The position numbers and the translations under genes were made by a program. A stretch of DNA of 64,000 nt from Candidatus Gottesmanbacteria bacterium (GTDB taxonomy: Bacteria > Patescibacteriota > Microgenomatia > UBA10105 > UBA927), in contig JACRMP010000037.1 of NCBI GenBank assembly GCA_016214885.1, forward strand, positions 7,675 through 71,674, in the 5' to 3' direction. The stretch's first letter is position 1. Each line of letters starts with the position of its first letter. Below are positions 1-24,128 of the stretch, one piece after another. A model generated the notes under the pieces. It saw only the letters and a program-made list of their open reading frames with translations. It searched no databases and had not been told where the DNA came from.

Positions 1-205
1 TTCAGGAGGTGCCCTACCTATGCAATATCTTCGACCTTTCGGTCGCCTTCTTGCATGGCAGCGTCATAAAGACGCGGGTTTCCCCATTCGGAAACCGCCG
101 GATCGCAGGATGTTGACTCCTCCCCGACGAATATCGCTGCCAACTACGTCCTTCTTCGGCACAACAGCCCAAGGCATCCATTATCGACTTGTAGCGTTGC
201 GGAGA
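1..205 (-). rRNA. rrl: 23S rRNA, 5' portion; gene continues beyond window start
   Basis: The reverse complement of ~30-200 contains ATGGATGCCTTGG, GAAGGACGT, CGGTTTCCGAATGGGGAAACCC and CATAGGTAGGG...CTGAA, which match conserved 5'-proximal 23S elements (E. coli-like GGATGCCCTGG / CCGAATGGGGAAACCC). The 5' end is estimated near 205. Confidence 0.7.
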
Positions 206-454: not shown

Positions 455-527
455 TGGACCCGGGCGGAGTCGAACCGCCTGCCTCTTCATTGCAAATGAA
501 GCGTTCAACCAGGTAAACTTCGGGCCC
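455..527 (-). tRNA. tRNA-Ala (anticodon UGC)
   Basis: The reverse complement folds as a cloverleaf: acceptor GGGCCCG/CGGGTCC with a G3:U70 wobble (the Ala identity element), D-stem GTTT/GAAC with a GG-containing loop, anticodon stem CTTCA/TGAAG with loop TTTGCAA (UGC), T-arm GGCGG-TTCGACT-CCGCC and discriminator A. CCA is not encoded. Confidence 0.8.
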
Positions 528-838: not shown

Positions 839-1723
839 TTATGTTATTGATCTCGCGAGGAGTCCTGAAAGTTCAGCGCCATCCATTTTATCGGCCTCCC
901 GGTTATTCCGGATAAACACCCCAAGCCCCATGTAGAGCATCTTGCCGGTAGCAGTATGCAGCGATGATTTCTCCTGAAGCATAGAAAGGCGTGTCACCAC
1001 CTGCTCAAATAAGGCGCCTGCAATAGGCACCTGCGATATAATACGCATATAGCTTTCGAGGGTAGCTCCGTTTACCAAATCGTTGGTCTTTTCAAAACCT
1101 ACCTGCAGCGTATCAGCGCCTTTGTCGGCCACCTCGTGGATATAACCCCTCTTCCCTGAAAGATGTTCGACAAGCATATTACCGAGTGCGGTTGCATATT
1201 TATCATTTAATACCTCAACAACTTTTTTCATACCGCCAACGCGCGCATTGAAGCGCAAATCGTCAGGAGTCATGAGCTTGGCATCTTTCTTAACTACCGG
1301 AAATAGCTTTTCAAGCGGCTTACTGGTTGCATAATCAAATGCGGTAAAAAGCGCAATTACCCCGGAAAATGCGGCTACCCGCTCCAGGCGTTCTTTTGCC
1401 CCGCCGATGTCTTTGCCGCCGCGGAAGTCCGCGTCTATCTTGCGGACGTGCTGCCCCATATGAGATACAAAGCTACCCGGTTTATATATCGCTTCATACA
1501 GCGCTTCGCGGAGCGCATCAAACTGCGGAGGCTTCTTTTTTTTGTCATACGGGGAATGTTCACCAACCTGGAATACTTGCTCCCAGTGCTTTTTCCGGTC
1601 TTCCATATATGCCTTCTTCCATGCGGCTGCCCCATCACCTGAGGGCGGGGTTGCAGGCTTTACTGTTTCTGCAGTAGTGGGGTAAGTTACTTTTACTGAT
1701 AAGGTTTCGACAGTCATATACAA
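839..1723 (-). CDS. hypothetical protein (cluster member A8)
   Basis: 294-aa ORF with no recognisable catalytic motifs. Its N-terminal region carries a W..Y..E..H..KKKKPPQFDAL motif also seen in other cluster proteins. Confidence 0.55.
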   Translation of the reverse strand: MYMTVETLSVKVTYPTTAETVKPATPPSGDGAAAWKKAYMEDRKKHWEQVFQVGEHSPYDKKKKPPQFDALREALYEAIYKPGSFVSHMGQHVRKIDADFRGGKDIGGAKERLERVAAFSGVIALFTAFDYATSKPLEKLFPVVKKDAKLMTPDDLRFNARVGGMKKVVEVLNDKYATALGNMLVEHLSGKRGYIHEVADKGADTLQVGFEKTNDLVNGATLESYMRIISQVPIAGALFEQVVTRLSMLQEKSSLHTATGKMLYMGLGVFIRNNREADKMDGAELSGLLARSIT

Positions 1724-1809
1724 AAATGATGCCTCACTTAGGCATCAGCGACAGTATAGCATATTATTATCCTATAACAATATGTAGCAATAGCCTGTCC
1801 TGACGCTCT

Positions 1810-2535
1810 TTATAACGGTTTTATGTTTTTCCCGATGTGGAACCCGGTAATGGCTTTCCCAAAAATACTCTGACCGAGCTTTGAGGTAGCGGTTTCTAAC
1901 AGGTGGTCAGATTTTTCATGAAGCCAGGTAACTGCGCTTCCTACAATCGGCAACTCTTCGACAATACGGAACGCAGCTTCCACGTTTACCGGATTAAAGA
2001 AATCAGCTGATGCGTAGGCAAGCTTGATCTTGCCATAAGTTTGCGGCACGGTATGACCGTGATGTACTTTTGTTTTTCCGTAAAGCCGGTCGGCCAAGAA
2101 TACCTGGGATATCACATTCCCCCACTCCGCAAGGAACGCGGATGTTTCAGAAACATACTTTGCATCATCAACGCCGGTCATAGCGCGAACCCAGGCATTA
2201 GCCACGCTGGCATATATGCTGTCCGATGCCCATTCTTCCACAAATTCCAAAGCAAACTGCTTACCTTGTGCGGACTTAGCCGCTTCTTTAAACTGAGGAC
2301 CTTTAGCTTTAAGCTCATGAATGCGGTCATGCATCGGCTCACGGATTACTTTGTCGACAAGGTGGCTTTCTGCAAAATCAACTGCAGTGGCTCCCACGAG
2401 GATAGTCGTGTTGATTCCTAGCCGCTTAAGGCTGTCTCCAGGCTGGGATTCATGTTTTTTTTCGGGGATAAGCAGACGCTGGAACCCCTGTTCTGCCGGG
2501 GTATATGCTCGTGTTGGTGCTGCTTCTTTATGCAT
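1810..2535 (-). CDS. hypothetical protein (cluster member A7)
   Basis: 241-aa ORF, co-directional and tightly spaced with its neighbours. No known motifs. Confidence 0.55.
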   Translation of the reverse strand: MHKEAAPTRAYTPAEQGFQRLLIPEKKHESQPGDSLKRLGINTTILVGATAVDFAESHLVDKVIREPMHDRIHELKAKGPQFKEAAKSAQGKQFALEFVEEWASDSIYASVANAWVRAMTGVDDAKYVSETSAFLAEWGNVISQVFLADRLYGKTKVHHGHTVPQTYGKIKLAYASADFFNPVNVEAAFRIVEELPIVGSAVTWLHEKSDHLLETATSKLGQSIFGKAITGFHIGKNIKPL

Positions 2536-2627
2536 AGGTTATACAACAAACCCAAACACATAGTTTGGGAATAAAAGGAGTATACCACAAAAAGTGTCCT
2601 ATAGCAATAGCTACTTGGGGATGCCGC

Positions 2628-2921
2628 TTATACGGAAAGGAGGCCCAATCCGGCGTTAATCAAACCGAGTGATTCCTCATGCTTCTTTTTTTCTTCCAGT
2701 GACATATCTTTTGTTGTGTGGCCCAAAAGCGACCGAATCTGCTGGGTGTGTTTTGTAATGGCAGCCTGATACTCCCGGTCAAATGCATCAATCCCCGCTT
2801 CCAGCTGTGCTTTGTCTTCTTCGCTGGCTTCTGCCATAGCTACCAGCACATCGACTTTTTGTGCATCACTGAATAATTTGGTTGCCTGAATTTTTTTGTT
2901 AATCCTCAAGTCGTTCATCAT
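2628..2921 (-). CDS. small helical hypothetical protein (paralog family T, copy 3)
   Basis: Start placed at the internal MMNDL, preceded by AGAGGGGGT (Shine-Dalgarno). The N-terminus shares the pattern I.A.....FSDAQK..VL with copies at 3913..4227 and 5124..5381. Confidence 0.55.
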   Translation of the reverse strand: MMNDLRINKKIQATKLFSDAQKVDVLVAMAEASEEDKAQLEAGIDAFDREYQAAITKHTQQIRSLLGHTTKDMSLEEKKKHEESLGLINAGLGLLSV

Positions 2922-3876
2922 ACCCCCTCTTTTTATTGTATTTATTATAGGAATTGCCGTAATACACGTTCTCCCCTTTATTAGGGGCACCTGCTTTGCC
3001 GCCCGACCAATCCTTTAATTTTCTGGTCTGACGGAGCTCTTTGTAATTCTTAGCAAATGTCGATAACCCATTCCACATCATTTCTACACCCAGTTGGGTA
3101 ACGGGGTTTGAGAGATTAAAAATACTTCCGACCATTCCCCGCTCTGCAACAGATGTAAGAGTGCGTTTATGAAGTAATTGCTTTTGCCCCGGCTTATGAA
3201 TTCCTAATGCATCATTCATCTGCATAACAGACCCTTCGACGCCAAATGGATACTTTTTTGGCGCACGCTGTTTATTCCCCCGGTATCCACCCCGGTATTT
3301 CCACTTCTCCACCCGTTTCTCTTTAATACGGGAAGCAGCACCTTTCATTTCATCTGGAATACTCTGCACAAAACCGGCTTCAAAGGCATTCGCAGCCAAT
3401 GAACGCAAAACATGCGGTGATTCAACTTGGGTAAAAATTGGCTGTGACCGGTAAGCAATAAAGTTATATAACGCAGCGAGCGCCACATCCTGTGTTCCTT
3501 CTTTTACAAAATGGGATATACGCGGATGCTTTTCTGACAATGCAGCAAGTTTTTTACCGGCACTCTCCCCCATGACAAACCGTTCAAAAATGGGGCCTTC
3601 CCCCCGCCAGGCCTTACTGAACATATCATCGGTTGCCAACTCTAGCCCCGCTCCCACCGCTCCGGTAAGCGCCCCGCGGGCCACGCGCATCAGTGCACTG
3701 TCGCCGTCAAACTTCCGTTTTGCCATGTCATTTGCCGAACGGATGTCGCTCACCATATCTGCGGCGGCCTTACCCAATCGCATAAACAACGATTGCTCCT
3801 TGGTTATTTTTTCAGGCAAAGGAGCGGAAGCCTCTTTTGGCAGCCAATGTTGCGGTATTTCGGCATGTTGTTGCAT
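2899..3876 (-). CDS. hypothetical protein (cluster member A6)
   Basis: 325-aa ORF with a glycine-zipper-like segment (GALTGAVGAGLEL) and a Lys/Tyr/Asn-rich C-terminus. Confidence 0.55.
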   Translation of the reverse strand: MQQHAEIPQHWLPKEASAPLPEKITKEQSLFMRLGKAAADMVSDIRSANDMAKRKFDGDSALMRVARGALTGAVGAGLELATDDMFSKAWRGEGPIFERFVMGESAGKKLAALSEKHPRISHFVKEGTQDVALAALYNFIAYRSQPIFTQVESPHVLRSLAANAFEAGFVQSIPDEMKGAASRIKEKRVEKWKYRGGYRGNKQRAPKKYPFGVEGSVMQMNDALGIHKPGQKQLLHKRTLTSVAERGMVGSIFNLSNPVTQLGVEMMWNGLSTFAKNYKELRQTRKLKDWSGGKAGAPNKGENVYYGNSYNKYNKKRGYDERLED

Positions 3877-3912
3877 AGCGTTATTTAAGCGTATAGGAGT
3901 TTGACAGTCCCG

Positions 3913-4227
3913 TCAAACACCGTCGTGTTGCGGAAAAAACTCCGCTGATTGTTTTTTTGCCTTATCCAATACATCCCGTTTTTCATCTTCAGTTAAATCG
4001 CTCGCCGCTACTTCTTCCTCAAATGCGCGTAGCGCCTTCGCAAGATCAGTGCGTAATGCTTTTTCCCGGTACACGGAATGCGTATCAAACGCCTCAAGCA
4101 TGTCCTCCACCCGTTTTCGATAATCATCGGGAAGGGTTTCCGGCTGATCCAATAACTCCTTTTTCTGGTCATCAGATAACACCCTGCTTTTATTTACTGC
4201 AGTAATAAATGCTTGGATATTTGCCAT
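3913..4227 (-). CDS. small helical hypothetical protein (paralog family T, copy 2)
   Basis: Start at MANIQAFITAVNKSRVLSDDQKKELLD, preceded by a GGAGGG Shine-Dalgarno. Paralogous N-terminal motif as above. Confidence 0.55.
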   Translation of the reverse strand: MANIQAFITAVNKSRVLSDDQKKELLDQPETLPDDYRKRVEDMLEAFDTHSVYREKALRTDLAKALRAFEEEVAASDLTEDEKRDVLDKAKKQSAEFFPQHDGV

Positions 4228-4228
4228 A

Positions 4229-5107
4229 TTATGTATGCCCTCCGTTAGTTGAAGGAGTATTGAATTGTTTAGCAATCAGCATGTTGTAGGCTAAATTTGT
4301 CGCAAACGGCATAACTCCTTTAGCTTGGATAAGCTGCCTGTTTGCGCTTGCATACATGCGCTCGACGAGTGCTCCTACCACAGGAATCGCACCGCCGAAC
4401 CGGAACGCACTTTCTATAAAGCCGGGATTTACGAATGAATTTACTACCCGTATATTTTTGGTTCCTGCATCAAACATAACGCCAGTCGCATTCACTATCG
4501 TGTTGCCTACCGCAGCTATAGTCCGCGATAGCGGGGAAACAAATCCGATATTGTCCCGGTTTGTAGCGGCCCTGGTGGCCACATCGGCGGCAGACCCTAC
4601 CAGCGCATCCGTGACAAACTCCCAGCCTACTTCAAGCGCCGCTTTGTTGCCGCTTTCCTTAAGGTTTATGGGCTTAAAAGGCCACACCCGGGCGCTTTCC
4701 AGCTTGAACAGCTTTTTTTGTGCAATAAGATCCCCCATTCTATCTAATCCGAATGATCCTGCCCCCAACACAAAAAAGGTAAGGAGCCTTCCCAGCTTAT
4801 GCGGCAGCTCCCTCCCACGAAGCTTGGCATCCAGTGCATTCACGCGCTCACCCAAGCTCGCGAACGTCGTTTTTTCATTGACATTTTTTATGGTTTCGGC
4901 GGTCATCATGGCAAGATTTCCCTGTACCGCTCCCGCTTCTCCCCGCTCAGCTAATGCTATGGGGGCTGCGACATCAAACACCTCCTGTAAATACTTATGA
5001 AACAGCGTATCGGCTTTTTTCTCAGGGGTTTTGCGTTCTGCTGATCCCTTGCCGACGTACACCCAATCAGTCTTGCCGTGAAAATTCTGTGTAATACTTT
5101 CTGCCAT
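4229..5107 (-). CDS. hypothetical protein (cluster member A5)
   Basis: 292-aa ORF with a glycine-zipper segment (FFVLGAGSFGLDRMGDL) and an N-terminal W.Y...E..PEKKADTLF motif. Confidence 0.55.
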   Translation of the reverse strand: MAESITQNFHGKTDWVYVGKGSAERKTPEKKADTLFHKYLQEVFDVAAPIALAERGEAGAVQGNLAMMTAETIKNVNEKTTFASLGERVNALDAKLRGRELPHKLGRLLTFFVLGAGSFGLDRMGDLIAQKKLFKLESARVWPFKPINLKESGNKAALEVGWEFVTDALVGSAADVATRAATNRDNIGFVSPLSRTIAAVGNTIVNATGVMFDAGTKNIRVVNSFVNPGFIESAFRFGGAIPVVGALVERMYASANRQLIQAKGVMPFATNLAYNMLIAKQFNTPSTNGGHT

Positions 5108-5123
5108 AGTATGGGTTAATTGA

Positions 5124-5381
5124 TTATTGAGCCTTACCGCTCCCTATATACACTTTCTCACTGCCCCCGCGCTCAAGTTCGGCAAGCATAATGTCGAGTT
5201 TTTGTTTTACATCATCTTCGTTAGCGAGGATAAACTGCCGCTCCGCAGCAAAAAACTTCCCCAATGCATCCGTCTGGCGATCCGTTAAACCCGGCACCAA
5301 ATCCAAAAGCATTAATCTATCCTCATCGGACAAAATAATACTTGCTTCAATTAGCGTTACTAGTGCAATTTTTTTATTCAT
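5124..5381 (-). CDS. small helical hypothetical protein (paralog family T, copy 1)
   Basis: 85 aa, MNKKIALVTLIEASIILSDEDRLMLLD, preceded by an AGAGGG Shine-Dalgarno. It overlaps the upstream gene's stop by 4 nt. Confidence 0.55.
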   Translation of the reverse strand: MNKKIALVTLIEASIILSDEDRLMLLDLVPGLTDRQTDALGKFFAAERQFILANEDDVKQKLDIMLAELERGGSEKVYIGSGKAQ

Positions 5382-6439
5382 ACAGAAGCCCTCTGCGGCA
5401 TGGGTGTAAACACCTCAGCCGCTTTTGCCACCTGCGGATTCTTCAATTTATCTATTTTTTTACTGAAGTGCGAAACAATAATATCTTTGGCTTTCTTAGC
5501 CCCCTCAAAACTCATTTTTGTTTCTTCATACCGGTTATGAAGGTATTGCCACGCAGGAGGAATAAGCCCTGCCCATACTTGCCCGAATAATTCTGCTCCG
5601 AATGAACCAAACACCACAACACTGGGCACATCAGGTGTGGGATCAATAATAGGCCCCAACGAATGAAGGAGTGTATGCTTACCGGCAACTTTGAGTCTAT
5701 GTCCTGCTTTTTCCCCAAATGTTGTAGCCGTCACCTCTCCCCTGGCGGAAGATAATATTTTTTCTGCGTCCGTTAACGCTTTACCGCTTTTTACGGCTTT
5801 TTCATAATTTAATACATAATCAGCATCCCGCAGATCATGGACAATGTGCTTCCTTACAAACTGGGAAACCTTACCTTCGACGGCCACTCCTTTTTTAAGC
5901 CCCTTCTCTAGACCCGCTTTTGCCACTCTTGTCGCCTGGCTTGCCTCCTGTGTTGCTACTGCCAATGCTGCTTTAGCCGCATCTGCCTTTTGCCTGGCCC
6001 TCTCGCTTTTACTAAACCACCCCGCCCACCGCTCAGCCTTTGATGCTGTTTTTTGTGCTTTAATAGCTGCAGTTTCTGCGTAAGCTGCTTTGTTTACCTT
6101 AGAGGCTAAACTCTCAATCTTGGCTCCCCCTTTTGCCAGAGCTATCCCCTCACTGGCGAGCGGCACAAACGGGATTATGGCTAATGCAGCTTTCACATCC
6201 TTAAATGCGATCCCCATCCTTTTTTTGAACATATCCTTATACAACCCGCCGAGCGATGCCAGAAGGCTCATCTGTTCGGTATTGGTCGTCACGTCGGCAC
6301 CAATAAGCGCACGGTTTGCTTCTACAGCTGCTTTTGCATCACCGATATGATTCCCCAACTCCGGAGAAACAGACATTCTGTTCTCGAGGGTCTCAGGAGA
6401 AAAATCATTCATAGCTTCAGTATGGGGCGTTTCTCTCAT
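5378..6439 (-). CDS. hypothetical Ala/Lys-rich coiled-coil protein (cluster member A4)
   Basis: 353 aa with a long Ala-rich helical region and a glycine-containing hydrophobic segment (LLASLGGLY...IIPFVPLASEGIALAKGG). Confidence 0.55.
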   Translation of the reverse strand: MRETPHTEAMNDFSPETLENRMSVSPELGNHIGDAKAAVEANRALIGADVTTNTEQMSLLASLGGLYKDMFKKRMGIAFKDVKAALAIIPFVPLASEGIALAKGGAKIESLASKVNKAAYAETAAIKAQKTASKAERWAGWFSKSERARQKADAAKAALAVATQEASQATRVAKAGLEKGLKKGVAVEGKVSQFVRKHIVHDLRDADYVLNYEKAVKSGKALTDAEKILSSARGEVTATTFGEKAGHRLKVAGKHTLLHSLGPIIDPTPDVPSVVVFGSFGAELFGQVWAGLIPPAWQYLHNRYEETKMSFEGAKKAKDIIVSHFSKKIDKLKNPQVAKAAEVFTPMPQRASV

Positions 6440-6458: not shown

Positions 6459-8681
6459 TTATCGTTTTGGCCGGGCGATAGCCTCCAGCACCTGATGATC
6501 AGAAAGCGTCGGTTTCGCCCCTATTCGGGGAGCAGTATCCCGTATATTTATCTTCTCAAAATCAATAATTTTCTCGGAAATATTCTCAAACACCGGATCA
6601 TGGGTAATAGCTACTACCGTCATATCGGGGCGTTCCTTTCGCAGGCGCTGGATAATATCCATCACCTGTTGGGCTGATGCTTCGTCGAGACTCGCTGTCG
6701 GCTCGTCCAGCACCAATATTTTTGGATTCTTAAGCAGTGCCCGCGCAATCCCAATCCGCCGCAGCTCTCCGCCAGAAAAATGTTTTGTCGTAGTATCCAG
6801 ACGATCCTGCAAATGCTCTAAACGAAGGTCTTTAAGTATTTTCGTTATAACGGTATCGGGCACGTTTTTATGCGACCACAACAGCAGGTTTTCTTTAAGC
6901 GTCATCCCTTCCAGAATTTGCGGGTTCTGGTTGGCATACCCCACCATAGTAGCCAGCGCCTCAGGGCCGTATTTTTTGATACCATCAATGGGAATTCCCC
7001 CGATTGCCACTGTGCCTGATTCGGGGGTATAGAGACCCACAAGGTTGCGGATAAATGTTGTCTTACCTGTCCCCGATTCGCCTTTAATTGTCACAAACGA
7101 GCCTTGTGGTATATCCAGCGATACATTCCGTACTATCCCCTTGTAGGAAAGGTTTTCGATATGGATGTCCGTATTAGCTAATTTTGTCACGGGTATACGT
7201 GCCCGTTCTTTTGGACCATTGGGGCGGTCTAACGTATCATATTTCCCCAGAAGCTCTTCCATGCGCCGTATATCCTGGATATCCGGGATGATGTTGTCTA
7301 CATACATACGCGTGAGACCGGCAAATGCTGCTCTCATCTCCATCTGTTGGTTTTTGGAATTGATTACCCGGGAAAGCGCATCGACCCCGAAATTAAATGC
7401 GCCTTCTCCTGATAATTTGCCGGGCGGCCTTTTTTGATTAAATTCAATAGCTTCACTCATAAACGGCAGCACAACATCCATCGCATCAAACAACATATTC
7501 ATCTGCCGCTGGCTTGCGAGCTTTTGCCGGAGCCCCTTGCTTGCCACCGTGTCCCGTTCCGTCAATAAATCGAGCATACTATCAGCACCGCTGGTTGCAC
7601 TCCCTGATGTCCGGACGGATTCAAGGCCTGCTAGCGTTGTCATAAGCTTTGTGTTCACTTTATCCATTCTAGCCAGCTCTGCCGCTCTGTTCTTCTGCAT
7701 TAGTTTTGCGTTCTGTTCACTGCGCATCAGCAAAAACGGCATTTTAATAAGCGTCGAGGCAAACTCCAATTTTCCCGTCACATACTGTCTCGGCAACTGG
7801 CTGAGTATCGAAAACATGGTGGGCAAAAACTCGGTATAGGTAGTGCGGACAAGGTCAATGGTAGATAGCTTACCGTTATTAATAATCTCCATTATCTCCC
7901 CCGCCGGCTTATCGTGAAGAAACTCAAAATCCCGCATAAATAACGATTCCGCTATCCGGGTATTTACCGCGCGCTGCAGATTCTGCCCTTCACGAACAAT
8001 GAGCTTATGGGCAAATTTTTCGGCCTGCCTCCCCACAAACCAATGTGCGGTTCCCGCAACCCACGGCCAGGTAGCGGAAAGCAATAATCCCAGCGCCTTC
8101 TTTTTCGTTTCCCCGGGGAGACGCTTAAGCGTTGCTCCAAGCTCCTGTAATGGCGTTTGACGCGCCTGCAGGAGCTCCAAACCATTCTCTACCTTGTCGG
8201 TAAACGCCTTCCTGGCATCTTCACTTATCCATGGCTTCGTCTGATAGCCACCAATAACACTGCCTGCCAGGTCGGTGGCAGCGTATATGCCGGTTACTGT
8301 CTGCCAATTACCGCTGCCTAATTTATAGGTGGTGAATAACTCCCCCATTACATCACGGTATTCCTGCATATTGATAACAGTTGGAGATTCTGGGGAAGTT
8401 GAAGGTTCGGGAGTTAGGCCGCTTTTTTTCCGGGCATAAGCAGCTTCTGCCTGGGCCATAACCGCTTTGTAGTCGTCTTTGCCGGCAATCAAACCTTCGT
8501 TCATGAGGTCGTGACCCACTGAAGTCGTTAAATCTTTAAGTTCATTAGGGTCAGGTGATTCGTTCTTGGAGACTTTTTGCGCTACCCGCGCTGCAGAAAC
8601 TAATGTCTCGGGTGATATCGCAAAAGGCGCAACCTCGCTTTGGGGCTTTTCAATGCGTTTACTTGATACCTCTGCCGTCAT
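6459..8681 (-). CDS. atypical ABC transporter ATPase fusion protein (N-terminal ~480-aa non-canonical domain plus C-terminal NBD)
   Basis: C-terminal Walker A GESGTGKTT, ABC signature FSGGELRRIGIARAL, Walker B ILVLDEPTASLD and H-loop AITHD. The middle region has an ABC-exporter ICL1-like motif (FLHDKPAGEIMEII...D) but only 1-2 convincingly hydrophobic helices. An extra ~180-aa N-terminal extension is present. Confidence 0.75.
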   Translation of the reverse strand: MTAEVSSKRIEKPQSEVAPFAISPETLVSAARVAQKVSKNESPDPNELKDLTTSVGHDLMNEGLIAGKDDYKAVMAQAEAAYARKKSGLTPEPSTSPESPTVINMQEYRDVMGELFTTYKLGSGNWQTVTGIYAATDLAGSVIGGYQTKPWISEDARKAFTDKVENGLELLQARQTPLQELGATLKRLPGETKKKALGLLLSATWPWVAGTAHWFVGRQAEKFAHKLIVREGQNLQRAVNTRIAESLFMRDFEFLHDKPAGEIMEIINNGKLSTIDLVRTTYTEFLPTMFSILSQLPRQYVTGKLEFASTLIKMPFLLMRSEQNAKLMQKNRAAELARMDKVNTKLMTTLAGLESVRTSGSATSGADSMLDLLTERDTVASKGLRQKLASQRQMNMLFDAMDVVLPFMSEAIEFNQKRPPGKLSGEGAFNFGVDALSRVINSKNQQMEMRAAFAGLTRMYVDNIIPDIQDIRRMEELLGKYDTLDRPNGPKERARIPVTKLANTDIHIENLSYKGIVRNVSLDIPQGSFVTIKGESGTGKTTFIRNLVGLYTPESGTVAIGGIPIDGIKKYGPEALATMVGYANQNPQILEGMTLKENLLLWSHKNVPDTVITKILKDLRLEHLQDRLDTTTKHFSGGELRRIGIARALLKNPKILVLDEPTASLDEASAQQVMDIIQRLRKERPDMTVVAITHDPVFENISEKIIDFEKINIRDTAPRIGAKPTLSDHQVLEAIARPKR

Positions 8682-8811
8682 ATCACTATTGTAAACACAT
8701 TTGGATACGTTGTCATTTGACAGAGGTCATAGATACACCGTGATATCCCATGGGAAAACGGAACCCACCGATAAACCATACGGCCACAATACAGCGGTAT
8801 TTACTATAACG

Positions 8812-9660
8812 TTACTTTTTCTTTTTTTTTGCGGCGCGCTTTTTTATTGCTTCAATTTTTATCTGATATGCACTCTTCTGCCCTGCTTCTACCCCTCTCA
8901 ATCCCATCGCTTTTCTTGCTGCCAAAATCTCATGAAGACCGCTCTGCATTTCATTTCTTCGTCTTACCAAGTCATCCACTGGTCTCCCAGCTTTCATGGC
9001 TTCTCTAATTTGCTTAGATAATTCCTCCACTTTGGTCAGTTCAGGCCGCCCGGAAAGCAGCGTTTCAGCCCGAGGAAGATCTCTCATGGCAATAAGACGT
9101 TTTTCCTTCAAACGTATCAGCGCTTCTCCTTGGTATTTACCGCTTTTAATTGCCTGATCAAGCGCTTCCACCCGCTTCCTATATCCTGTTGCTGCTTTAA
9201 TAGATTCAGAAACAGCGTCCACATTAATTGGCCCTTTACTGCTTCCTTCCCTACGGAAGAAATTAAACTTCCCAACCATTGACCGGAGGCTATCGTGGGC
9301 GCGTTTTCCGGCATTTGCCATTTTTTCACCCATTCCGCCCATGCGACCAATCCTATCCCGCATGCCGCCGACATTGGTGATAAGTCCCCCGCCCAATCCG
9401 GCAACGGTGACACCCAAAACAGTCGCTCCCCAATGGGTGGCCACGTCAATTTTTGCAGATGAAAGTGCGTCCTGTTCAATCTGGGCAAATGCTGCCTGCT
9501 TGTCTTCCGGGGAAAGATTTGCCGTCGCCTTTGCAATAAGATCAGCGTTGTTCTGATAAAATTTCTCTTTGGATCCTTGGATGGTGAATGACTTGCGGAC
9601 TTTTTCTTTAAGCCCTGCAAACCAACCTTGTCGTTCTGGTGACATACCTGCTTCGGTCAT
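8812..9660 (-). CDS. hypothetical protein (cluster member A3)
   Basis: Start placed at MTEAGMSPE, preceded by GAAGGAGGTTGTT. The protein has a glycine-zipper segment (GVTVAGLGGGLITNVGG), a C-terminal coiled coil and a poly-Lys tail. Confidence 0.55.
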   Translation of the reverse strand: MTEAGMSPERQGWFAGLKEKVRKSFTIQGSKEKFYQNNADLIAKATANLSPEDKQAAFAQIEQDALSSAKIDVATHWGATVLGVTVAGLGGGLITNVGGMRDRIGRMGGMGEKMANAGKRAHDSLRSMVGKFNFFRREGSSKGPINVDAVSESIKAATGYRKRVEALDQAIKSGKYQGEALIRLKEKRLIAMRDLPRAETLLSGRPELTKVEELSKQIREAMKAGRPVDDLVRRRNEMQSGLHEILAARKAMGLRGVEAGQKSAYQIKIEAIKKRAAKKKKK

Positions 9661-9690
9661 AACAACCTCCTTCATGAACTAACTAAATTA

Positions 9691-10002
9691 TTATATATTC
9701 TCGTCTGTTAATGCCTTTTCTACGTTCTCGAGTACCCCGGTCATCGTTTCTTCTATTTCCTTCAGCGCTTCCCCATCCTTGATGGAATCCCCTATAAGCT
9801 TTGCATAACTTTCAACAGTCACGCGTGACTTCGGATCAGCTGCCAAGTACTCTAGGTCTTCTTGTGGCATATATTTTACCATAATCGGCCAAACAGTGCT
9901 CTGGAGGCCTTCGGAAATGAGGACATAGAGCTCATTTTTTTCGGATTCCGACAGCTGTGACTTCTCTATCCTTTCAACAATTGCCTTAAGTTTTTCTTCC
10001 AT
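9691..10002 (-). CDS. small hypothetical protein (paralog family S, copy 2)
   Basis: Start at MEEKLKAIVERIE, preceded by AAAGGAGGAAAT. About 65% identical to 10871..11200 across the motif GLQSTVWPI.VKYMP...L..LA..P......Y.KLI.DS.KDG.ALKEIE. Confidence 0.6.
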   Translation of the reverse strand: MEEKLKAIVERIEKSQLSESEKNELYVLISEGLQSTVWPIMVKYMPQEDLEYLAADPKSRVTVESYAKLIGDSIKDGEALKEIEETMTGVLENVEKALTDENI

Positions 10003-10030
10003 ATTTCCTCCTTTAATCACTATAGCACAC

Positions 10031-10834
10031 TTATTTCTTTACAAAATCCAATGGTGTGGGTTTTTTTGGCCATTTTTCATGCGGCAATGCAACCGTAAGC
10101 CGATGCCAATCATTCAGGGCTTTTTCATATGCGCGCTTCGCTTTTCCCTGCGCTCCCCGCTCTTGAAGTTTTTTTACGCCTTCACCTACTTTATTCTCAA
10201 CTGCTTCTAAATCTTTGTACATTGTATAAGGTAACTTAACTGCTTCCACCGCGGCACCCCCAACAACCTTTGCTGCATCAACCATTGCCGGTCCACCGAC
10301 AAGACCCCAAACGTATTTGCCACCCTCCCCCACCTTCCGGATCGGCCAAAACATAATTTTGGCTCCCCACTCAATGGGTGTTACAACTACTTTAACCCCA
10401 AACATCGCGACATCCATCCCGGTTTTAACGGCATTATAGGAAACATCCTTCACCGCCTGGAACACGGTCCGTGAACGGTTGTCTACCCGCATGCGCGCAG
10501 CGGCATTACGGCCATTTACTGCTATAGCACGGTCATTTAGCTTCCCATACACCGCCGCCCCTCCCACCAGGGCGCCGCCGGCAACGAGGGAATCAATGAT
10601 TACGGAGCCTACTGCCGCACTTTTAGATTGCTGCCTGAGCCGTAATTCGAGAAGTGCCATCTGGCTTTCAGTAATATCCTTGGGGAGATTTTCTGCGATA
10701 CTGTTGTATTTTTTAAGATAGATTTTATCCGCACGCCCGTTAAGCGTCAGGTTATCATGCGACCAGCTTTTAATGCGGTCGACAATTCCCTTGCCGGATA
10801 ACCCTTTCATTTCCCCATGTGGCCGTTGTTCCAT
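10031..10834 (-). CDS. hypothetical protein (cluster member A2)
   Basis: 267 aa with a glycine-zipper segment (VIIDSLVAGGALVGGAAVYG) and a C-terminal KRAYEKALNDWHRL...HEKWPKKPTPLDF motif shared with A8. Confidence 0.55.
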   Translation of the reverse strand: MEQRPHGEMKGLSGKGIVDRIKSWSHDNLTLNGRADKIYLKKYNSIAENLPKDITESQMALLELRLRQQSKSAAVGSVIIDSLVAGGALVGGAAVYGKLNDRAIAVNGRNAAARMRVDNRSRTVFQAVKDVSYNAVKTGMDVAMFGVKVVVTPIEWGAKIMFWPIRKVGEGGKYVWGLVGGPAMVDAAKVVGGAAVEAVKLPYTMYKDLEAVENKVGEGVKKLQERGAQGKAKRAYEKALNDWHRLTVALPHEKWPKKPTPLDFVKK

Positions 10835-10870
10835 AGTGTTTTATCCGCCGGACAGAAGGCGGTTCCCCTT

Positions 10871-11200
10871 TTATTCCAAAACCGGCGCCTGTGGCACCCC
10901 CTGCTCCGTTAATGTTTTATCAACGGCATCAAGGATTTGTTGCATAAGCGTCTCGATCTCTTTCAGGGCTGCCCCGTCTTTGACGGAATCTTCGATAAGT
11001 TTGCCGTAAGTTTCCAGGTTTACTTTAGAAGGATTTTCCGCCAGATCATCAAGCTGATCTTTCGGCATGTATTTAATGAGGATCGGCCATACCGTGGACT
11101 GCAACCCCTCGGCAAGCGCCGTATATACGTCCTCTTTTTCATTTTCCGCAAGCTTCGACATCTCGACCCTCGTTACCACTGCACGAAGTTTATCATCCAT
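10871..11200 (-). CDS. small hypothetical protein (paralog family S, copy 1)
   Basis: 109 aa, MDDKLRAVVTRVE, preceded by AAAGGAG. Paralog of 9691..10002. Confidence 0.6.
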   Translation of the reverse strand: MDDKLRAVVTRVEMSKLAENEKEDVYTALAEGLQSTVWPILIKYMPKDQLDDLAENPSKVNLETYGKLIEDSVKDGAALKEIETLMQQILDAVDKTLTEQGVPQAPVLE

Positions 11201-11226: not shown

Positions 11227-11862
11227 TTATGGCCTCGCCTTAAGCCTGGTGGGTTTTTGTTCCGCAAACGGACTTTTGATCCAGTTTACAACCCTATCGA
11301 CTTTCTTTTTGGTCATGCGTACGGCAATTTCCGGAGCGCTCATCACTGCTTCTGCCCCCGTCCGTACCGCTTTGACAAGCCCCAATTCACCGCGCATTAA
11401 TCCCGCTCCCGCCGCATGAAGTCCAAGCTTCACGTCAAATCGGGCAAGGGCAAGCCGCTTAAAGGCATCTCTTGGCGGACCAAACGGGGTTAATTTCCGG
11501 GGCAACCAGGTGAGAATGTTATAAGGAATATCCAAAGTAGCGGCTCCAAAAGAAACAACTGCCGCTTCGACACGTGCGCCGGTGCGTTGAGAAAATTCCG
11601 CTATCTTCCCTACCAGTCCAAGCTCTTTGCCTGCATACATATGATGCAGAATCTTGTCCATATTCTCAACGTAATGCTTGTACACCCCTTTTCCTGAGGC
11701 ATTCTTCCGCCCATCGATATCCTGACGGATCTCCCAATAATCTTTATTGGTTTGCTGTACTTCCCCTATTGCTCCCCGTACGGCTTTGCCGACGGCGCTT
11801 TCACTCATCGCTTCCTGGAACGTTGTTTTCTCAAATCCTTCAGCCATAATCCTCCCTTTCAA
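11227..11862 (-). CDS. hypothetical protein (cluster member A1, first gene of cluster)
   Basis: 211 aa, preceded by AAAGGGAGGAT. Glycine-zipper segment GLHAAGAGLMRGELGL. Confidence 0.55.
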   Translation of the reverse strand: MKGRIMAEGFEKTTFQEAMSESAVGKAVRGAIGEVQQTNKDYWEIRQDIDGRKNASGKGVYKHYVENMDKILHHMYAGKELGLVGKIAEFSQRTGARVEAAVVSFGAATLDIPYNILTWLPRKLTPFGPPRDAFKRLALARFDVKLGLHAAGAGLMRGELGLVKAVRTGAEAVMSAPEIAVRMTKKKVDRVVNWIKSPFAEQKPTRLKARP

Positions 11863-11884: not shown

Positions 11885-11914
11885 ATACTAGGGGCGTTCT
11901 GCCTTCATTGTCAA
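11885..11914 (-). promoter_or_regulatory. candidate sigma70-like promoter for the hypothetical cluster
   Basis: On the minus strand, TTGACA-N18-TAGTAT sits ~25-50 nt upstream of the A1 start, in the 99-nt gap after gdh. Confidence 0.3.
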
Positions 11915-11961
11915 CTATATACCCGATATTATATACATAAATATCCTATAGGATCAAATAC

Positions 11962-13284
11962 TCAGCTCTTCATGGAAGCTAAAATCCTCTCCAGAGCCAC
12001 GACGAATGCCGCAGTGCGTAAATCAGTTTTATACATCACTGAGGCCTCCCAGACCGCTCCCGCCGCATCCGCCATTTTTTTGGCAAGTTTTTTATTTACC
12101 TGGGCTTTCGTCCAGTGGGCAGCTTTTCTATTCTGCTCCCATTCAAATGCCGACACCGTGACGCCACCGCTATTGCTTAAGATGTCCGGAATAACCGGGA
12201 TCCCCTTCTTATATAAAATAGTGTCCGCCTCCGGCGTGGTCGGACCGTTTGCCATCTCAAGCACCACCTTAGCCTTCACCTTCCCCGCGTTCTCGGCGGT
12301 AATGGCATTTTCGAGCGCCGCCGGCACCAGAATATCAACGGGCAGCTCAAGAAGCTCATTATTGGTCACCTGGCGTCCTTTTTTGAGATCACACACCGAG
12401 CCTGAGCAATAGCAACCCGCCAGATACCCATTCTTTTTCTTACAGTCCAGGGTGAGCGCTGGATTAATCCCTTCAGGCACATAAATGCCTCCTTTGCTGT
12501 CCGATACCGCAACCACCATTATCCCCGCTTCCTCCAGAAACTTAGCCACGTTATAGCCAACATTGCCGAATCCCTGCACTGCCGCGGTAAGCTTGCCCGA
12601 TAACTTAAGCTTTTTAATAATCGCCTGCAGCACAAACAGCCCGCCAAGTCCGGTCGCCTCTTCTCTCCCTTCGCTCCCCCCGTTGGTAATCGCTTTTCCG
12701 GTAAATGTACTTTTCAGCTTCAGGATATCTTTTTTGGTAAGTGTTTTACCCAATACTTTTGCCTTTATTTTTTGCGAAGCAATAAACTCCTCTACCATCC
12801 ATCCCATAATGACCCCGTTGGTGTTGACGTCCGGTGCCGGCACATCGGTATCAGGGCCAATTACATCTGCGATAGCTTTGCCGTATGCCCTACTTAACCG
12901 CTCAAGCTCACCCTGGGAAAGTGTTTTGGGATCGACGATAATGCCGCCTTTTCCTCCGCCGAGCGGCAAATCTGCCACTGCACATTTCATTGCCATCCAA
13001 AATGACAAAGCTTTGACCTCGTCGAGGCTCACATTATGGTGATACCGGATGCCCCCCTTATACGGACCCTTCGCGTTATTAAACTGCACACGGTAGCCCT
13101 GAAACAACCGCTGCGACCCGTCATCCATCATAACCGGAAGAGTCACATTTATAACCCGTTGCGGCTCCCGGAGTCTGGCTACCTTCTGGTCTATATTGCC
13201 CAATTTTTTCTTTGACCCGGCAAGCACCTTGTGTGCTTTGGCTAACTGCTTCATGGCTGACTCAAATGGATTGATAGCATTCAT
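11962..13284 (-). CDS. gdhA: NAD(P)-dependent glutamate dehydrogenase
   Basis: GGGKGG motif (LPLGGGKGGIIVDPK) and Rossmann GFGNVG. 440 aa. Confidence 0.85.
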   Translation of the reverse strand: MNAINPFESAMKQLAKAHKVLAGSKKKLGNIDQKVARLREPQRVINVTLPVMMDDGSQRLFQGYRVQFNNAKGPYKGGIRYHHNVSLDEVKALSFWMAMKCAVADLPLGGGKGGIIVDPKTLSQGELERLSRAYGKAIADVIGPDTDVPAPDVNTNGVIMGWMVEEFIASQKIKAKVLGKTLTKKDILKLKSTFTGKAITNGGSEGREEATGLGGLFVLQAIIKKLKLSGKLTAAVQGFGNVGYNVAKFLEEAGIMVVAVSDSKGGIYVPEGINPALTLDCKKKNGYLAGCYCSGSVCDLKKGRQVTNNELLELPVDILVPAALENAITAENAGKVKAKVVLEMANGPTTPEADTILYKKGIPVIPDILSNSGGVTVSAFEWEQNRKAAHWTKAQVNKKLAKKMADAAGAVWEASVMYKTDLRTAAFVVALERILASMKS

Positions 13285-23537: not shown

Positions 23538-24128
23538 TTAGTTAAACCTATTCATTGCGCGGTCGATTCCCTTAAATAACCCCACCCGCACCGCCTCTAC
23601 CCCATGGGCAACCAAATGCTTAAATTCCCCCGCTTCACTTCTGCCAAACTTGGACAAGACAAACCGGATAACCGAAGACTGATGCAACTGCCGGTCAGCT
23701 GCCACCGTACCACCGCTTTTTACTTTTCCGATTCCTAATCTTACCCGCACGAACTTGTCACTCCCCAACTCTTTAATAATTGAGTCTATACCATGGTGAC
23801 CAGCCGAGGCGCCCCCCACTCGGATGCGGATTTTCCCCAGTGGAAGATCGAGGTCGTCATGGATGACCCAAACATCCTCAGGTTTCATTTTATAAAAATC
23901 AATGATTTTTCTCACCGCTACCCCACTTGCGTTCATAAATGTTGTCGGCTTAGCGAGCACTACTTCCCCTGTTTTAGCCATCTCTGCCACAAGCTTTTGC
24001 GATGTTTCCCACACCACATCGGCGCCCCCTAATTCATGGGCAAGCTTATCGACCACCATAAACCCCACATTATGACGGGTATCTTTATACTTGTCTCCCG
24101 GGTTTCCTAATCCGACAATAAGTTTCAT
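23538..24128 (-). CDS. pth: peptidyl-tRNA hydrolase
   Basis: MKLIVGLGNPG...TRHNVGF N-terminal signature. Confidence 0.9.
   Translation of the reverse strand: MKLIVGLGNPGDKYKDTRHNVGFMVVDKLAHELGGADVVWETSQKLVAEMAKTGEVVLAKPTTFMNASGVAVRKIIDFYKMKPEDVWVIHDDLDLPLGKIRIRVGGASAGHHGIDSIIKELGSDKFVRVRLGIGKVKSGGTVAADRQLHQSSVIRFVLSKFGRSEAGEFKHLVAHGVEAVRVGLFKGIDRAMNRFN

What the first reader, a model, noticed from the sequence alone, without database searches (positions are those of the whole stretch)
9691..11200. Tandem duplicated module: two ~65%-identical 103/109-aa proteins, each preceding a glycine-zipper protein
S1 (10871..11200) and S2 (9691..10002) share the motif GLQSTVWPI(L/M)(I/V)KYMP..(Q/E)(L/D)..LA..P......Y.KLI.DS.KDG.ALKEIE and nearly identical MxxKL(K/R)A(I/V)V.R(I/V)E N-termini. 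The downstream proteins A2 and A3 have diverged far more, which is the signature of partner-protein conservation with effector diversification. Both small proteins are predicted all-helical, with a central conserved Trp.
Basis: seen in the sequence. Interest (0 to 1): 0.55.

Follow-up and report, generated by a model that had tools for sequence, protein, structure and literature searches.

The report
Repeated small-partner/variable-protein gene modules in Gottesmanbacteria
The two small look-alike proteins are real: they belong to an undescribed family found almost only in one group of ultra-small bacteria, where each copy sits directly in front of a larger, fast-evolving basic protein, but what the pair does is still inferred, not shown.

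Summary
S1 (10871-11200, minus strand, 109 aa) and S2 (9691-10002, minus strand, 103 aa) are clear paralogues, but at 53% identity (E 2e-40), not about 65%. Each precedes a basic protein, A2 or A3. A2 and A3 share a conserved N-terminal region of about 100 aa with a Gly/Ala-rich, only marginally hydrophobic segment. Their C-terminal regions are highly variable.

The S family is narrow: 99 clusters at 50% identity among 1.84 billion proteins. It has no Pfam, NCBIfam, PADLOC, PHROG or PDB relative and was not found in viral contigs.

In 23 non-redundant loci (mostly MAGs named Ca. Gottesmanbacteria or Patescibacteria), 42 of 44 S genes with a non-S gene downstream are followed by an A-type basic protein, often with a 4-nt overlap. 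The position is fixed: Trx-TrxR-FNR-GDH-[S/A array]-ABC ATPase-second array.

S is more conserved than the neighbouring GDH (97-99% against 94-95% in the closest relative), while A2 and A3 are about 70%. dN/dS stays far below 1 for all of them.

S1-type and S2-type domains are fused in several species. My best reading, at confidence 0.4, is that S is an acidic cytoplasmic partner or chaperone, possibly acting as a dimer, for conditionally membrane-active A proteins. The function is unproven.

The parts
11885..11957 (-). Two sigma-70-like promoter matches in the GDH-A1 intergenic region (11957-11928 TTGATC-18-TATAAT; 11914-11885 TTGACA-18-TAGTAT). This is the candidate promoter of the A1-S1-A2-S2-A3 operon.
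   Evidence: These are consensus matches only, and their overall number is not above shuffled expectation.
11227..11847 (-). A1: a 206-aa basic protein (pI 9.9) and the first gene of the array. It is an A-type protein distantly related to family c29, which follows S genes in other species.
   Evidence: ORF. Start at ATG 11847 with a GGGAGG RBS, and orthologues of 204-211 aa. hhalign A1 against c29 gives 93.7% over 185 columns. No Pfam or NCBIfam hit.
10871..11200 (-). S1: a 109-aa acidic (pI 4.4, net charge -10) helical protein, the S1-type member of the S family.
   Evidence: dN/dS is 0.01 against L028.
10031..10834 (-). A2: a 267-aa basic protein (pI 9.9). It has a conserved N-terminal ~100 aa containing the [FL]T[LVI]xG[RAS]xxK motif and the Gly/Ala-rich segment 77-95, followed by a variable, mosaic C-terminal half.
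   Evidence: It is 70% identical to the L028 orthologue where S1 is 97%.
9691..10002 (-). S2: a 103-aa acidic (pI 4.4, net charge -11) helical protein, the S2-type member of the S family.
   Evidence: RBS AAGGAGG lies before ATG 10002. dN/dS is 0.02.
8812..9660 (-). A3: a 282-aa basic protein (pI about 10.2; 287 aa if started at ATG 9675). Its N-terminal domain is homologous to that of A2, with a Gly-rich segment WGATVLGVTVAGLGGGLIT. Its C-terminal half is Lys/Arg-rich (net +22) and variable.
8688..8716 (-). Sigma-70-like promoter match (ATGACA-17-TACAAT) in the 130-nt A3-ABC gap. This is the candidate start of a second transcription unit.
   Evidence: consensus match only.
6459..8681 (-). ABC-type ATPase, 740 aa. 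It has an ABCB/exporter-like nucleotide-binding domain at residues ~500-710 and a ~490-aa N-terminal region with no TM-grade hydrophobic segment. It is conserved directly downstream of the S/A array in most species, in 1-3 copies.
839..6439 (-). Second alternating array: B1 (5378-6439), s3 (5124-5381), B2 (4229-5107), s4 (3913-4227), s5 (2628-2921) after B3 (2899-3876), then B4 (1810-2535) and B5 (839-1723). Large, mostly basic proteins alternate with small acidic helical proteins. It is syntenic with the S/A array in most species.

Best explanation
The region holds two ancient copies of a two-gene module inside a vertically inherited, Gottesmanbacteria-specific operon (A1-S1-A2-S2-A3). Each module has two parts. 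The first is a small, very acidic, all-helical, extremely conserved cytoplasmic protein (S). The second, immediately downstream and often translationally coupled, is a basic A-type protein. The A-type protein has a conserved N-terminal helical region, one marginally hydrophobic Gly/Ala-rich segment, and a rapidly diverging C-terminal half that is sometimes exchanged as a cassette.

Most likely mechanism (inferred). S, possibly as an S1:S2 or S:S dimer, binds the conserved N-terminal or Gly-rich part of the A proteins in the cytoplasm. It would act as a dedicated chaperone or adaptor, keeping this aggregation- or membrane-prone part soluble until the A protein is delivered to its site of action. 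That site would be a membrane, its own or a host cell's, perhaps reached with the help of the adjacent ABC-type ATPase and the second array of small and large proteins. The variable C-terminal half would carry the lineage-specific activity or interaction surface.

Shown: homology, module structure, synteny, adjacency and coupling, charge complementarity, the rate contrast, N-terminal conservation with C-terminal variability, S-S fusions, and the narrow taxonomic range. Inferred: the physical S:A interaction, membrane activity of A, and any link to the ABC ATPase.
For: (1) S1 and S2 are paralogues (E 2e-40). A2 and A3 are paralogues through their N-terminal domain (hhalign 97.5%). So the unit that duplicated was S plus A.

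(2) In 23 non-redundant loci there are 45 S genes. Of the 44 with a non-S gene downstream, 42 are followed by an A-type gene (A2, A3, c23, c29, c63 or c64) and 42 of 44 downstream proteins have pI above 8.5. The median S-to-A gap is 3.5 nt, with many 4-nt overlaps, against 26.5 nt on the upstream side. In six species the array starts with S right after GDH and ends with A. Eighteen further metagenome loci show the same pattern.

(3) Clades in the S tree correspond to position and neighbour, which points to ancient co-duplication and co-inheritance.

(4) Charges are complementary. S is -10/-11 with pI 4.4; A proteins have pI 9.9-10.2.

(5) The rate contrast is strong. S is 97-99% identical against ~70% for A2/A3 in the closest relative. 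dN/dS is 0.01-0.02 against 0.09-0.19. The variation in A is confined to the C-terminal half, including cassette replacement.

(6) The Gly-rich segments of A2 and A3 score between true TM helices and soluble controls from the same window. Hessa sums are +3.3 and +4.9, against -2.3 to +1.4 for TM proteins and +6 to +9 for soluble proteins. This fits conditionally membrane-inserting proteins that would need a keeper. A2 alone does not give a confident fold (pLDDT 40).

(7) S has no signal peptide or TM segment.

(8) Natural fusions of S1-type and S2-type domains (L016, L017, L038, L040, P0029) indicate that the S paralogues act together.

(9) The family is narrow and unannotated: 99 representative clusters among 1.84 billion proteins, with no Pfam, NCBIfam, PADLOC, PHROGs or PDB hits and no viral contigs.
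Against: Known secretion chaperones are usually poorly conserved, whereas S is more conserved than GDH, which suggests additional or different constraints. S conservation does not track A2/A3 divergence, so S cannot recognise the variable part.

No recognisable secretion machine sits in the locus. The ABC protein lacks TM-grade segments, and only 2 of 21 orthologues hit ABC_membrane. One species (L001) lacks the ABC gene altogether. A proteins have no recognisable toxin or enzyme domain. The fixed chromosomal position in every species looks more like a core cellular function than an effector island. dS is near saturation, so the dN/dS values are only rough.
Confidence: 0.4

Rival explanations
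1. S and A proteins are stoichiometric subunits of a lineage-specific housekeeping structure, such as a membrane-associated or envelope/cytoskeletal complex. That complex would also include the ABC-type ATPase and the B/s3-s5 proteins. S1 and S2 would form a conserved heterodimeric core, and the A proteins would be peripheral subunits whose C-terminal halves are under weak constraint. No chaperoning or export is involved.
For: The locus is at the same chromosomal position (Trx-TrxR-FNR-GDH-array-ABC-array) in all 22 species genomes found, consistent with vertical inheritance. All genes are under purifying selection. S is more conserved than metabolic neighbours, as expected for a core subunit with many contacts. 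S1-S2 fusions exist. The ABC protein has no TM-grade segments. No viral or defence-system hits were found.
Against: S copy number varies from 1 to 4 per locus. A-type families are swapped and the C-terminal cassette of A2 is replaced between species, which is unusual for a fixed-stoichiometry machine. The ABC gene is absent from one species and tripled in others.
Confidence: 0.25
2. The modules are toxin-antidote pairs. A proteins would be membrane-depolarising glycine-zipper toxins, and the acidic S proteins would neutralise them as immunity proteins or type II-like antitoxins.
For: A small acidic upstream gene and a larger basic downstream gene with overlapping stop and start codons resemble type II TA operons. 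Glycine-zipper toxins with small protective partners are known, for example EsxX (PMC12744356 abstract) and TelE (PMC10434224 title). The C-termini of A are polymorphic.
Against: Immunity proteins normally co-diversify with their toxins, but S is nearly invariant while A changes. S has no DNA-binding or known antitoxin domain. The locus is not patchy or mobile; it is syntenic in all species found and absent from viral contigs. An unpaired A1 precedes S1, and fused S-S proteins serve a single A-type gene.
Confidence: 0.12
3. The adjacency has no functional meaning. S would be a small regulatory or metabolic accessory protein, for example linked to the upstream redox/GDH genes. The A proteins would be unrelated, fast-evolving orphan genes that happen to be co-transcribed.
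For: No interaction evidence exists. S always lies downstream of the Trx-TrxR-FNR-GDH block. The A2 model is essentially unfolded, as for many orphan or disordered proteins.
Against: The S/A alternation is repeated 1-4 times per locus. S-to-A translational coupling is frequent, and S and A co-duplicated. The N-terminal domains of A are conserved with invariant residues, so they are not junk ORFs.
Confidence: 0.1

Closest known systems
PE/PPE gene pairs of mycobacteria (type VII/ESX substrates); comparison from my own knowledge, not tested by homology here
   Same: A small (~100 aa) conserved helical protein is encoded directly upstream of a larger protein. The larger protein has a conserved N-terminal helical domain and a hypervariable C-terminal region. 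The pairs are duplicated many times as two-gene modules, and the two proteins form a heterodimer.
   Different: There is no sequence or profile similarity; Pfam gives no PE, PPE or WXG100 hit. No ESX/EssC ATPase is in the locus. S is acidic with five predicted helices rather than a two-helix hairpin. The lineage is different (Patescibacteria). Here the copies sit in one fixed locus rather than being dispersed.
LXG toxin modules with small helical Lap/DUF partner proteins (T7SSb), including the glycine-zipper toxins TelE and EsxX (PMC10434224, PMC12744356, PMC12482557)
   Same: Small alpha-helical partner proteins are encoded just upstream of a polymorphic protein. That protein's N-terminal domain is conserved and its C-terminus varies. 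Some of these C-termini are glycine-zipper membrane-depolarising toxins.
   Different: No LXG, Lap/DUF3130/DUF3958 or WXG100 hit was found. No T7SS genes are in the window. In A2 and A3 the Gly-rich segment lies in the conserved N-terminal part, not the variable C-terminus. No downstream immunity gene is evident.
T6SS Eag (DUF1795) or DUF4123 chaperone-effector pairs
   Same: A dedicated cytoplasmic chaperone gene is adjacent to an effector whose N-terminal hydrophobic segments must be shielded before export.
   Different: No homology was found. Patescibacteria lack T6SS (own knowledge). Eag proteins are beta-rich, whereas S is all-helical.
Glycine-zipper bacteriocin systems exported by ABC/T1SS transporters (for example Caulobacter CdzC/D with CdzAB; own knowledge)
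   Same: Gly-zipper-like proteins are encoded next to an ABC-type ATPase with an exporter-class NBD.
   Different: The ABC protein here has no TM-grade helices, no C39 peptidase and no MFP partner. A proteins are 150-290 aa with no double-glycine leader. The partner S protein has no counterpart.
Type II toxin-antitoxin operons
   Same: A small acidic upstream gene and a basic downstream gene with overlapping stop and start codons.
   Different: No TA family hit was found. The locus is vertical and syntenic, not mobile. A proteins are larger and their N-termini are conserved. S lacks a DNA-binding domain.

Membership tests
WXG100/Esx (T7SS small substrates) | Match to the WXG100 profile (PF06013) and a central W-x-G turn motif | tested here: not met
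   No Pfam hit at E<=1. The Trp is in V-W-P-I, with no Gly at +2, and is not conserved family-wide.
WXG100/Esx (T7SS small substrates) | Two-helix hairpin fold of ~100 aa | tested here: inconclusive
   The AF2 model has five helices at pLDDT 72.8. There is no significant PDB fold match.
WXG100/Esx (T7SS small substrates) | Genomic association with an FtsK/SpoIIIE-type EssC/EccC ATPase | tested here: not met
   None is present in the window's large ORFs or in the related loci. The only ATPase in the locus is ABC-type.
LXG toxin / Lap partner modules | LXG domain at the N-terminus of the large protein; Lap-type (DUF3130/DUF3958) small partners | tested here: not met
   No Pfam or NCBIfam hit for A1, A2, A3, S1 or S2.
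Pfam glycine-zipper families (Gly-zipper_Omp, Gly-zipper_YMGG, Gly-zipper_OmpA, Rick_17kDa_Anti) | Profile match; tandem GxxxG zipper in a hydrophobic segment | tested here: not met
   No profile match at E<=1. The strict [GAS]xxxGxxx[GAS] pattern occurs in the A3 segment but not in the A2 segment. The label 'glycine-zipper-like' is descriptive only.
ABC exporter (type I secretion / bacteriocin exporter) as the cognate export machine | Six TM helices (ABC_membrane) fused to an exporter-class NBD | tested here: not met
   The NBD is present (ABC_tran 3.7e-31) and the best PDB hits are ABCB-type NBDs. No 19-residue window reaches TM-grade hydrophobicity: KD maximum 1.15 and Hessa sum +6.0, the same range as soluble controls. 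ABC_membrane is hit in only 2 of 21 orthologues.
ABC exporter (type I secretion / bacteriocin exporter) as the cognate export machine | C39 peptidase domain or MFP/HlyD partner | tested here: not met
   No such domain was found in the ABC protein or in neighbouring genes.
Type II toxin-antitoxin | Recognisable toxin/antitoxin domains; patchy, mobile distribution | tested here: not met
   No Pfam, NCBIfam or PADLOC hit. The position is syntenic in 22 species genomes. Absent from viral contigs.
Type II toxin-antitoxin | Toxicity of the downstream protein neutralised by the upstream protein | not testable with these tools
   This needs expression experiments.
Acyl/peptidyl carrier proteins (small acidic helical proteins with a conserved Ser) | PP-binding profile with DSL/GGxS phosphopantetheine site | tested here: not met
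   No PP-binding hit. The invariant Ser15 sits in an E-x-S-x-L-x-[DE]-x-[DE]-K context that looks like a helix N-cap, not a DSL motif.
S family itself (new, unnamed) | About 100-110 aa acidic helical protein with consensus M..E..L..I...IE.S.L....K..LY..I...L...V.P.L.K..P...L, followed by an A-type basic gene | tested here: met
S1 and S2 match the family profile at E 1e-50 to 1e-60.

The most novel reading that the evidence does not exclude
The whole ~11-kb locus may encode a previously undescribed, Gottesmanbacteria-specific apparatus. The locus comprises the A1-S1-A2-S2-A3 array, an ABCB-type ATPase that has lost membrane-grade helices, and the B1-s3-B2-s4-B3-s5-B4-B5 array. In this reading, families of small acidic escort proteins (S and s3-s5) hand marginally hydrophobic, Gly-rich basic proteins to an ATP-driven machine for insertion into, or attack on, a membrane, possibly that of the host cell of these presumed episymbionts. 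The exchangeable C-terminal halves of A2 and A3 would set specificity. That would be a new protein-delivery or effector system of CPR bacteria with no homologue among known secretion systems.
Probability: 0.15. Interest if true: 0.8.

Novelty: new variant of a known kind. Interest (0 to 1): 0.45.

Why it matters
Patescibacteria (CPR) make up a large share of bacterial diversity, and most are thought to live attached to other cells. Very little is known about the proteins they use at that interface. This locus is a compact, lineage-restricted, vertically inherited set of about 14 genes with no annotation. It has a clear internal grammar: an acidic small partner, then a basic protein with a conserved N-terminus and a variable C-terminus, repeated and linked to an unusual ABC ATPase.

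The work defines a new protein family (S) with a reproducible genomic partner. It yields concrete, cheap experiments: co-expression, pull-down, toxicity and localisation. If S proves to be a chaperone or adaptor for membrane-active proteins, this would be a CPR analogue of PE/PPE or Lap/LXG modules that arose independently. If not, it still marks a core, unexplained cellular structure of Gottesmanbacteria.

Tried and rejected
- **S1+A2 complex model with a linker and paired alignment.** I tried AF2 on a linker-joined S1+A2 with a 28-row paired alignment.
- **In-frame read-through reference.** I tried window:10031-11200, since S1 and A2 share a frame.
- **AF2 of A2 alone.** With 24 A2/A3 sequences the model had pLDDT 40.3 and was unusable, so I ran no fold search on it.
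- **Fold and sequence searches.** The S1 model gave nothing below E=1 against PDB or BFVD. The S and A2/A3 profiles gave nothing significant against PDB sequences.
- **Homology of S to s3/s4/s5.** They share an N-terminal h-x-x-h-E-x-S-x-L-S-[DE]-x-x-K motif. Against each family separately hhalign gives 11% probability or less, and 58% against the merged family. This is inconclusive, and I do not claim it.
- **P0059.** This is an S domain with a 125-aa extension carrying a Gly-rich hydrophobic segment, a possible S-A fusion. The extension has no detectable similarity to any A family, so it remains only a lead.
- **Metagenome scans with diverse S alignments.** I tried these to reach distant lineages. 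The final scan with the close family added 18 loci with the same architecture.
- **Positive selection on A.** Not supported: dN/dS is 0.09-0.19, and dS of 0.6-2.5 is close to saturation.
- **Other 109-aa and 211-aa ORFs.** The ORFs at 24831-25160 and 24125-24760 have the same lengths as S and A1 but show no similarity.
- **Considered and rejected.** Carrier protein (no PP-binding hit), pilin (no prepilin motif followed by a hydrophobic helix), phage or defence origin, and WXG100.
- **Literature.** A search for this cluster in Gottesmanbacteria found nothing.
Full report
**1. What is there.** All genes in the region lie on the minus strand. In transcription order they are:
- glutamate dehydrogenase (11962-13284)
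- A1 (11227-11847, 206 aa)
- S1 (10871-11200, 109 aa)
- A2 (10031-10834, 267 aa)
- S2 (9691-10002, 103 aa)
- A3 (8812-9660, 282 aa)
- a 130-nt gap
- an ABC-type ATPase (6459-8681, 740 aa)
- a second alternating series: B1, s3, B2, s4, B3, s5, B4, B5 (839-6439)
- a tRNA and the start of 23S rRNA

Ribosome-binding sites support the ATG at 10002 for S2, 11847 for A1 and 9660 for A3. Promoter-like hexamers lie upstream of A1 and upstream of the ABC gene. Terminator-like hairpins follow s5, B4 and B5. These are pattern matches only.

**2. Check of the observation.** S1 and S2 align over 103 residues with 53% identity, 81% positives and E 2e-40. The paralogy is real, but the '~65%' figure is too high. 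The quoted motifs are present. tblastn finds no further copy in the window. An AF2 model of S1 from a 17-sequence alignment has pLDDT 72.8 and five helices.

A2 and A3 show no BLASTP similarity (E 0.49). Profiles built from their orthologues match at 97.5% probability over the N-terminal ~110 positions. That shared part carries a [FL]T[LVI]xG[RAS]xxK motif and a Gly/Ala-rich segment with invariant D81, G87 and G92 in A2 numbering.

The Gly/Ala-rich segments are only marginally hydrophobic. KD-19 values are 1.78 (A2) and 1.51 (A3). Hessa-scale sums are +4.9 and +3.3. Genuine membrane proteins of the same window score -2.3 to +1.4, and soluble enzymes score +6 to +9. No Pfam glycine-zipper model is hit. 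'Glycine-zipper protein' is therefore a description, not a family assignment.

**3. The S family.** No Pfam, NCBIfam, PADLOC or PHROGs model matches S1 or S2. Neither the S profile against PDB sequences nor the S1 model against PDB and BFVD folds gives a significant match.

The word-indexed search of 5.8 billion proteins finds 28 clusters. The only informative source label among them is 'Patescibacteria group bacterium'. The exhaustive profile search of 1.84 billion representatives finds 99 clusters at E<=1e-3, of which 75 are at E<=1e-10. Apart from about ten long multi-stretch proteins at marginal E-values, a few short fragments and a few fusions, they are stand-alone proteins of about 100-113 aa.

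Family-wide, only K22 and P39 are nearly invariant. The Trp is a feature of the close subfamily. A scan of 185,579 species genomes finds 22 loci. Those with informative names are labelled Ca. Gottesmanbacteria, Ca. Woesebacteria or Patescibacteria; several TPA records carry an 'uncultured Gammaproteobacteria' title. No relative occurs in IMG/VR viral contigs.

**4. Genomic grammar.** In all these genomes the locus sits at the same place: thioredoxin, thioredoxin reductase, an FNR-like protein, GDH, then the S/A array. Next come usually one to three ABC ATPase genes and the B/s array. The number of S genes per locus ranges from 1 to 4.

In 23 non-redundant loci there are 45 S genes, one of which is followed directly by another S gene. 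Of the other 44, 42 are followed by a member of the A-type families (A2, A3, c23, c29, c63, c64), and 42 of the 44 downstream proteins have pI above 8.5. The median S-to-A distance is 3.5 nt, with many 4-nt overlaps, whereas the median upstream distance is 26.5 nt.

In six species the array begins with S directly after GDH and reads S-c23-S-A2-S-A3. This fixes the module as 'S, then A'. Eighteen additional metagenome loci follow the same rule.

The A-type families are linked by profile comparison: A2~A3 97.5%, c23~c29 96%, A1~c29 94%. A neighbour-joining tree of S domains splits into clades that correspond to position and neighbour. The window's S1 and S2 therefore belong to two old, orthologous lineages. 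They are not a recent tandem duplication.

**5. Evolutionary rates.** The closest relative is L028/L030, where GDH is 94-95% identical and the ABC protein 93%.

| Protein | Identity to L028 |
|---|---|
| S1 | 97% |
| S2 | 99% |
| A1 | 86% |
| A2 | 70% |
| A3 | 71% |

At greater distance S stays at 53-90%, while A2 and A3 fall to 25-41% or become undetectable. Nei-Gojobori dN/dS is 0.01 (S1), 0.02 (S2), 0.09-0.10 (A2) and 0.19 (A3). dS ranges from 0.6 to 2.5 and is close to saturation, so the ratios are rough. Nothing suggests positive selection on whole genes.

Alignments show that the N-terminal ~100-130 residues of A2 and A3 are well conserved. The C-terminal half is mosaic, and in L006 and L031 it is replaced by unrelated sequence.

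**6. Physical properties.** All five small proteins of the locus are acidic, with pI 4.4-5.6. All large ones except B4 are basic, with pI 9.2-10.2. S1 and S2 carry net charges of -10 and -11. The positive charge of A1-A3 is concentrated in the C-terminal part, at +12 to +22. None of the proteins has an N-terminal signal-peptide-like start.

**7. Fusions.** S1-type and S2-type domains are fused into one polypeptide in L016, L017, L038, L040 and P0029. They are adjacent without an intervening A gene in L009 and L035. In each case where the contig continues, a c29-type gene follows. By Rosetta-stone reasoning the two S paralogues probably act together, for example as a heterodimer.

**8. The neighbours.** The ABC protein has a typical exporter-class NBD, and its best PDB matches are ABCB1 and ABCB4 NBDs. 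The preceding 490 residues contain no TM-grade segment in the window protein, and at most one or two in the 31 orthologues examined. Only 2 of 21 orthologues hit ABC_membrane. It should not be assumed to be a membrane exporter.

The second array repeats the grammar. s3, s4 and s5 are mutually related (hhalign 69-93%, and s5 matches family c18 at 99.8%). B2, B4 and B5 are paralogues. The identities of each small protein and the large protein that follows it co-vary in the window-L028 comparison: s3 98 with B2 97, s4 83 with B3 75, s5 91 with B4 92. Whether S and s3-s5 are one superfamily is unresolved. The best result is 58% hhalign probability, driven by a shared N-terminal motif.

**9. Interpretation.** The data establish a duplicated two-gene module (S+A) embedded in a vertically inherited, lineage-specific locus. 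My preferred mechanism is that S is a dedicated cytoplasmic partner, a chaperone or adaptor and possibly a dimer, for the conserved N-terminal or Gly-rich part of the A proteins. The A proteins would be conditionally membrane-active and would carry variable C-terminal functional regions. Confidence is 0.4.

This reading explains the adjacency and coupling, the charge complementarity, the conservation of S together with the N-terminal half of A only, the marginal hydrophobicity, and the failure of A2 to fold alone in silico.

The main rival, at 0.25, is that S and A are co-subunits of a housekeeping complex peculiar to this lineage. The fixed chromosomal position, the purifying selection and the unusually strong conservation of S favour it. 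A toxin-antidote reading (0.12) fits the operon layout, but it conflicts with the invariance of S against variable A and with the non-mobile distribution. Pure coincidence of adjacency (0.1) is unlikely given repeated co-duplication.

**10. Relation to known systems.** By architecture the nearest analogues are mycobacterial PE/PPE pairs and firmicute LXG toxins with small helical Lap-type partners. The latter include the glycine-zipper toxins TelE and EsxX (PMC10434224, PMC12744356). Membership in these or in the WXG100, glycine-zipper Pfam, T1SS/bacteriocin-exporter, Eag-chaperone, type II TA or carrier-protein families was tested where possible and not met (see the membership table). The module therefore 'may work like' a partner/polymorphic-protein pair, but it is not a member of any described family.

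**11. Verdict.** This is a real, non-chance feature. It is a new, narrow protein family with a reproducible genomic partner in an unannotated CPR-specific locus. The function remains inferred. Interest is moderate at 0.45. It would rise sharply if an S:A complex and membrane activity or export were demonstrated.

Noticed in passing
window 839-6439 (minus strand): A second alternating array lies downstream of the ABC gene: B1-s3-B2-s4-B3-s5-B4-B5. Small acidic helical proteins (85-104 aa) alternate with large, mostly basic proteins (241-353 aa). s3, s4 and s5 are mutually homologous by hhalign, and B2, B4 and B5 are paralogues. Identity to the closest relative co-varies within small-then-large pairs (98/97, 83/75, 91/92). 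None has a Pfam hit.
   Followed up: partly
window 6459-8681 (minus strand): The 740-aa ABC protein has an ABCB/exporter-type NBD but no TM-grade hydrophobic segment in its 490-aa N-terminal region. The same holds in about 30 orthologues, and only 2 of 21 hit ABC_membrane. It is present in 1-3 tandem copies in other species and absent from L001. It may be a soluble or degenerate-TMD ABC ATPase.
   Followed up: partly
L016:9527-10309, L017:9671-10309, L038, L040; P0029: These are natural fusions of an S1-type and an S2-type domain into one protein of 212-260 aa. Each is followed by a c29-type gene. In L009 and L035 the two S genes are adjacent but unfused.
   Followed up: partly
window 10031-10500 (C-terminal half of A2); L006, L031, P0129-P0135: The C-terminal half of A2 is mosaic. 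The window, P0128 and P0129 share one tail, P0130-P0135 share another, and P0131 looks chimeric. L006 and L031 carry an unrelated C-terminal cassette. L028 and L030 have identical neighbouring genes but different called A2 lengths (263 vs 271 aa). The difference lies at the N-terminus, so it may reflect start-site calling (my own ORF call gives 271 aa for both). The pattern suggests recombination.
   Followed up: partly
P0059 (223 aa, from the representatives search): An S-family domain (residues 1-96) is fused to a 125-aa extension containing a Gly-rich hydrophobic segment (KIAGFICRTALGIGSGTVV). This could be an S-A type fusion, but the extension has no detectable similarity to any A family.
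   Followed up: yes
window 10031-11200 and 8812-10002 (minus strand): S1 and A2, and likewise S2 and A3, are in the same reading frame, separated only by 2-3 stop codons and 12 or fewer sense codons. This is probably trivial, but stop-codon read-through would produce S-A fusions.
   Followed up: no
window 1-204 and 455-527 (minus strand): The 5' end of a bacterial 23S rRNA gene and a tRNA lie immediately downstream of the locus. No 16S is adjacent within the window on this side.
   Followed up: no
window 25232-26569 (minus strand): A 445-aa ORF has no Pfam hit at E<=1e-5, and an 821-aa DUF4012 protein lies at 56054-58519. Both are further uncharacterised large proteins in an otherwise housekeeping context.
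   Followed up: no
L007-L011, L015, L016 and other loci: Many GTDB species-representative MAGs carrying this Patescibacteria-specific locus are titled 'uncultured Gammaproteobacteria bacterium' in their TPA records. This looks like a mislabelling of the submitted bins.
   Followed up: no
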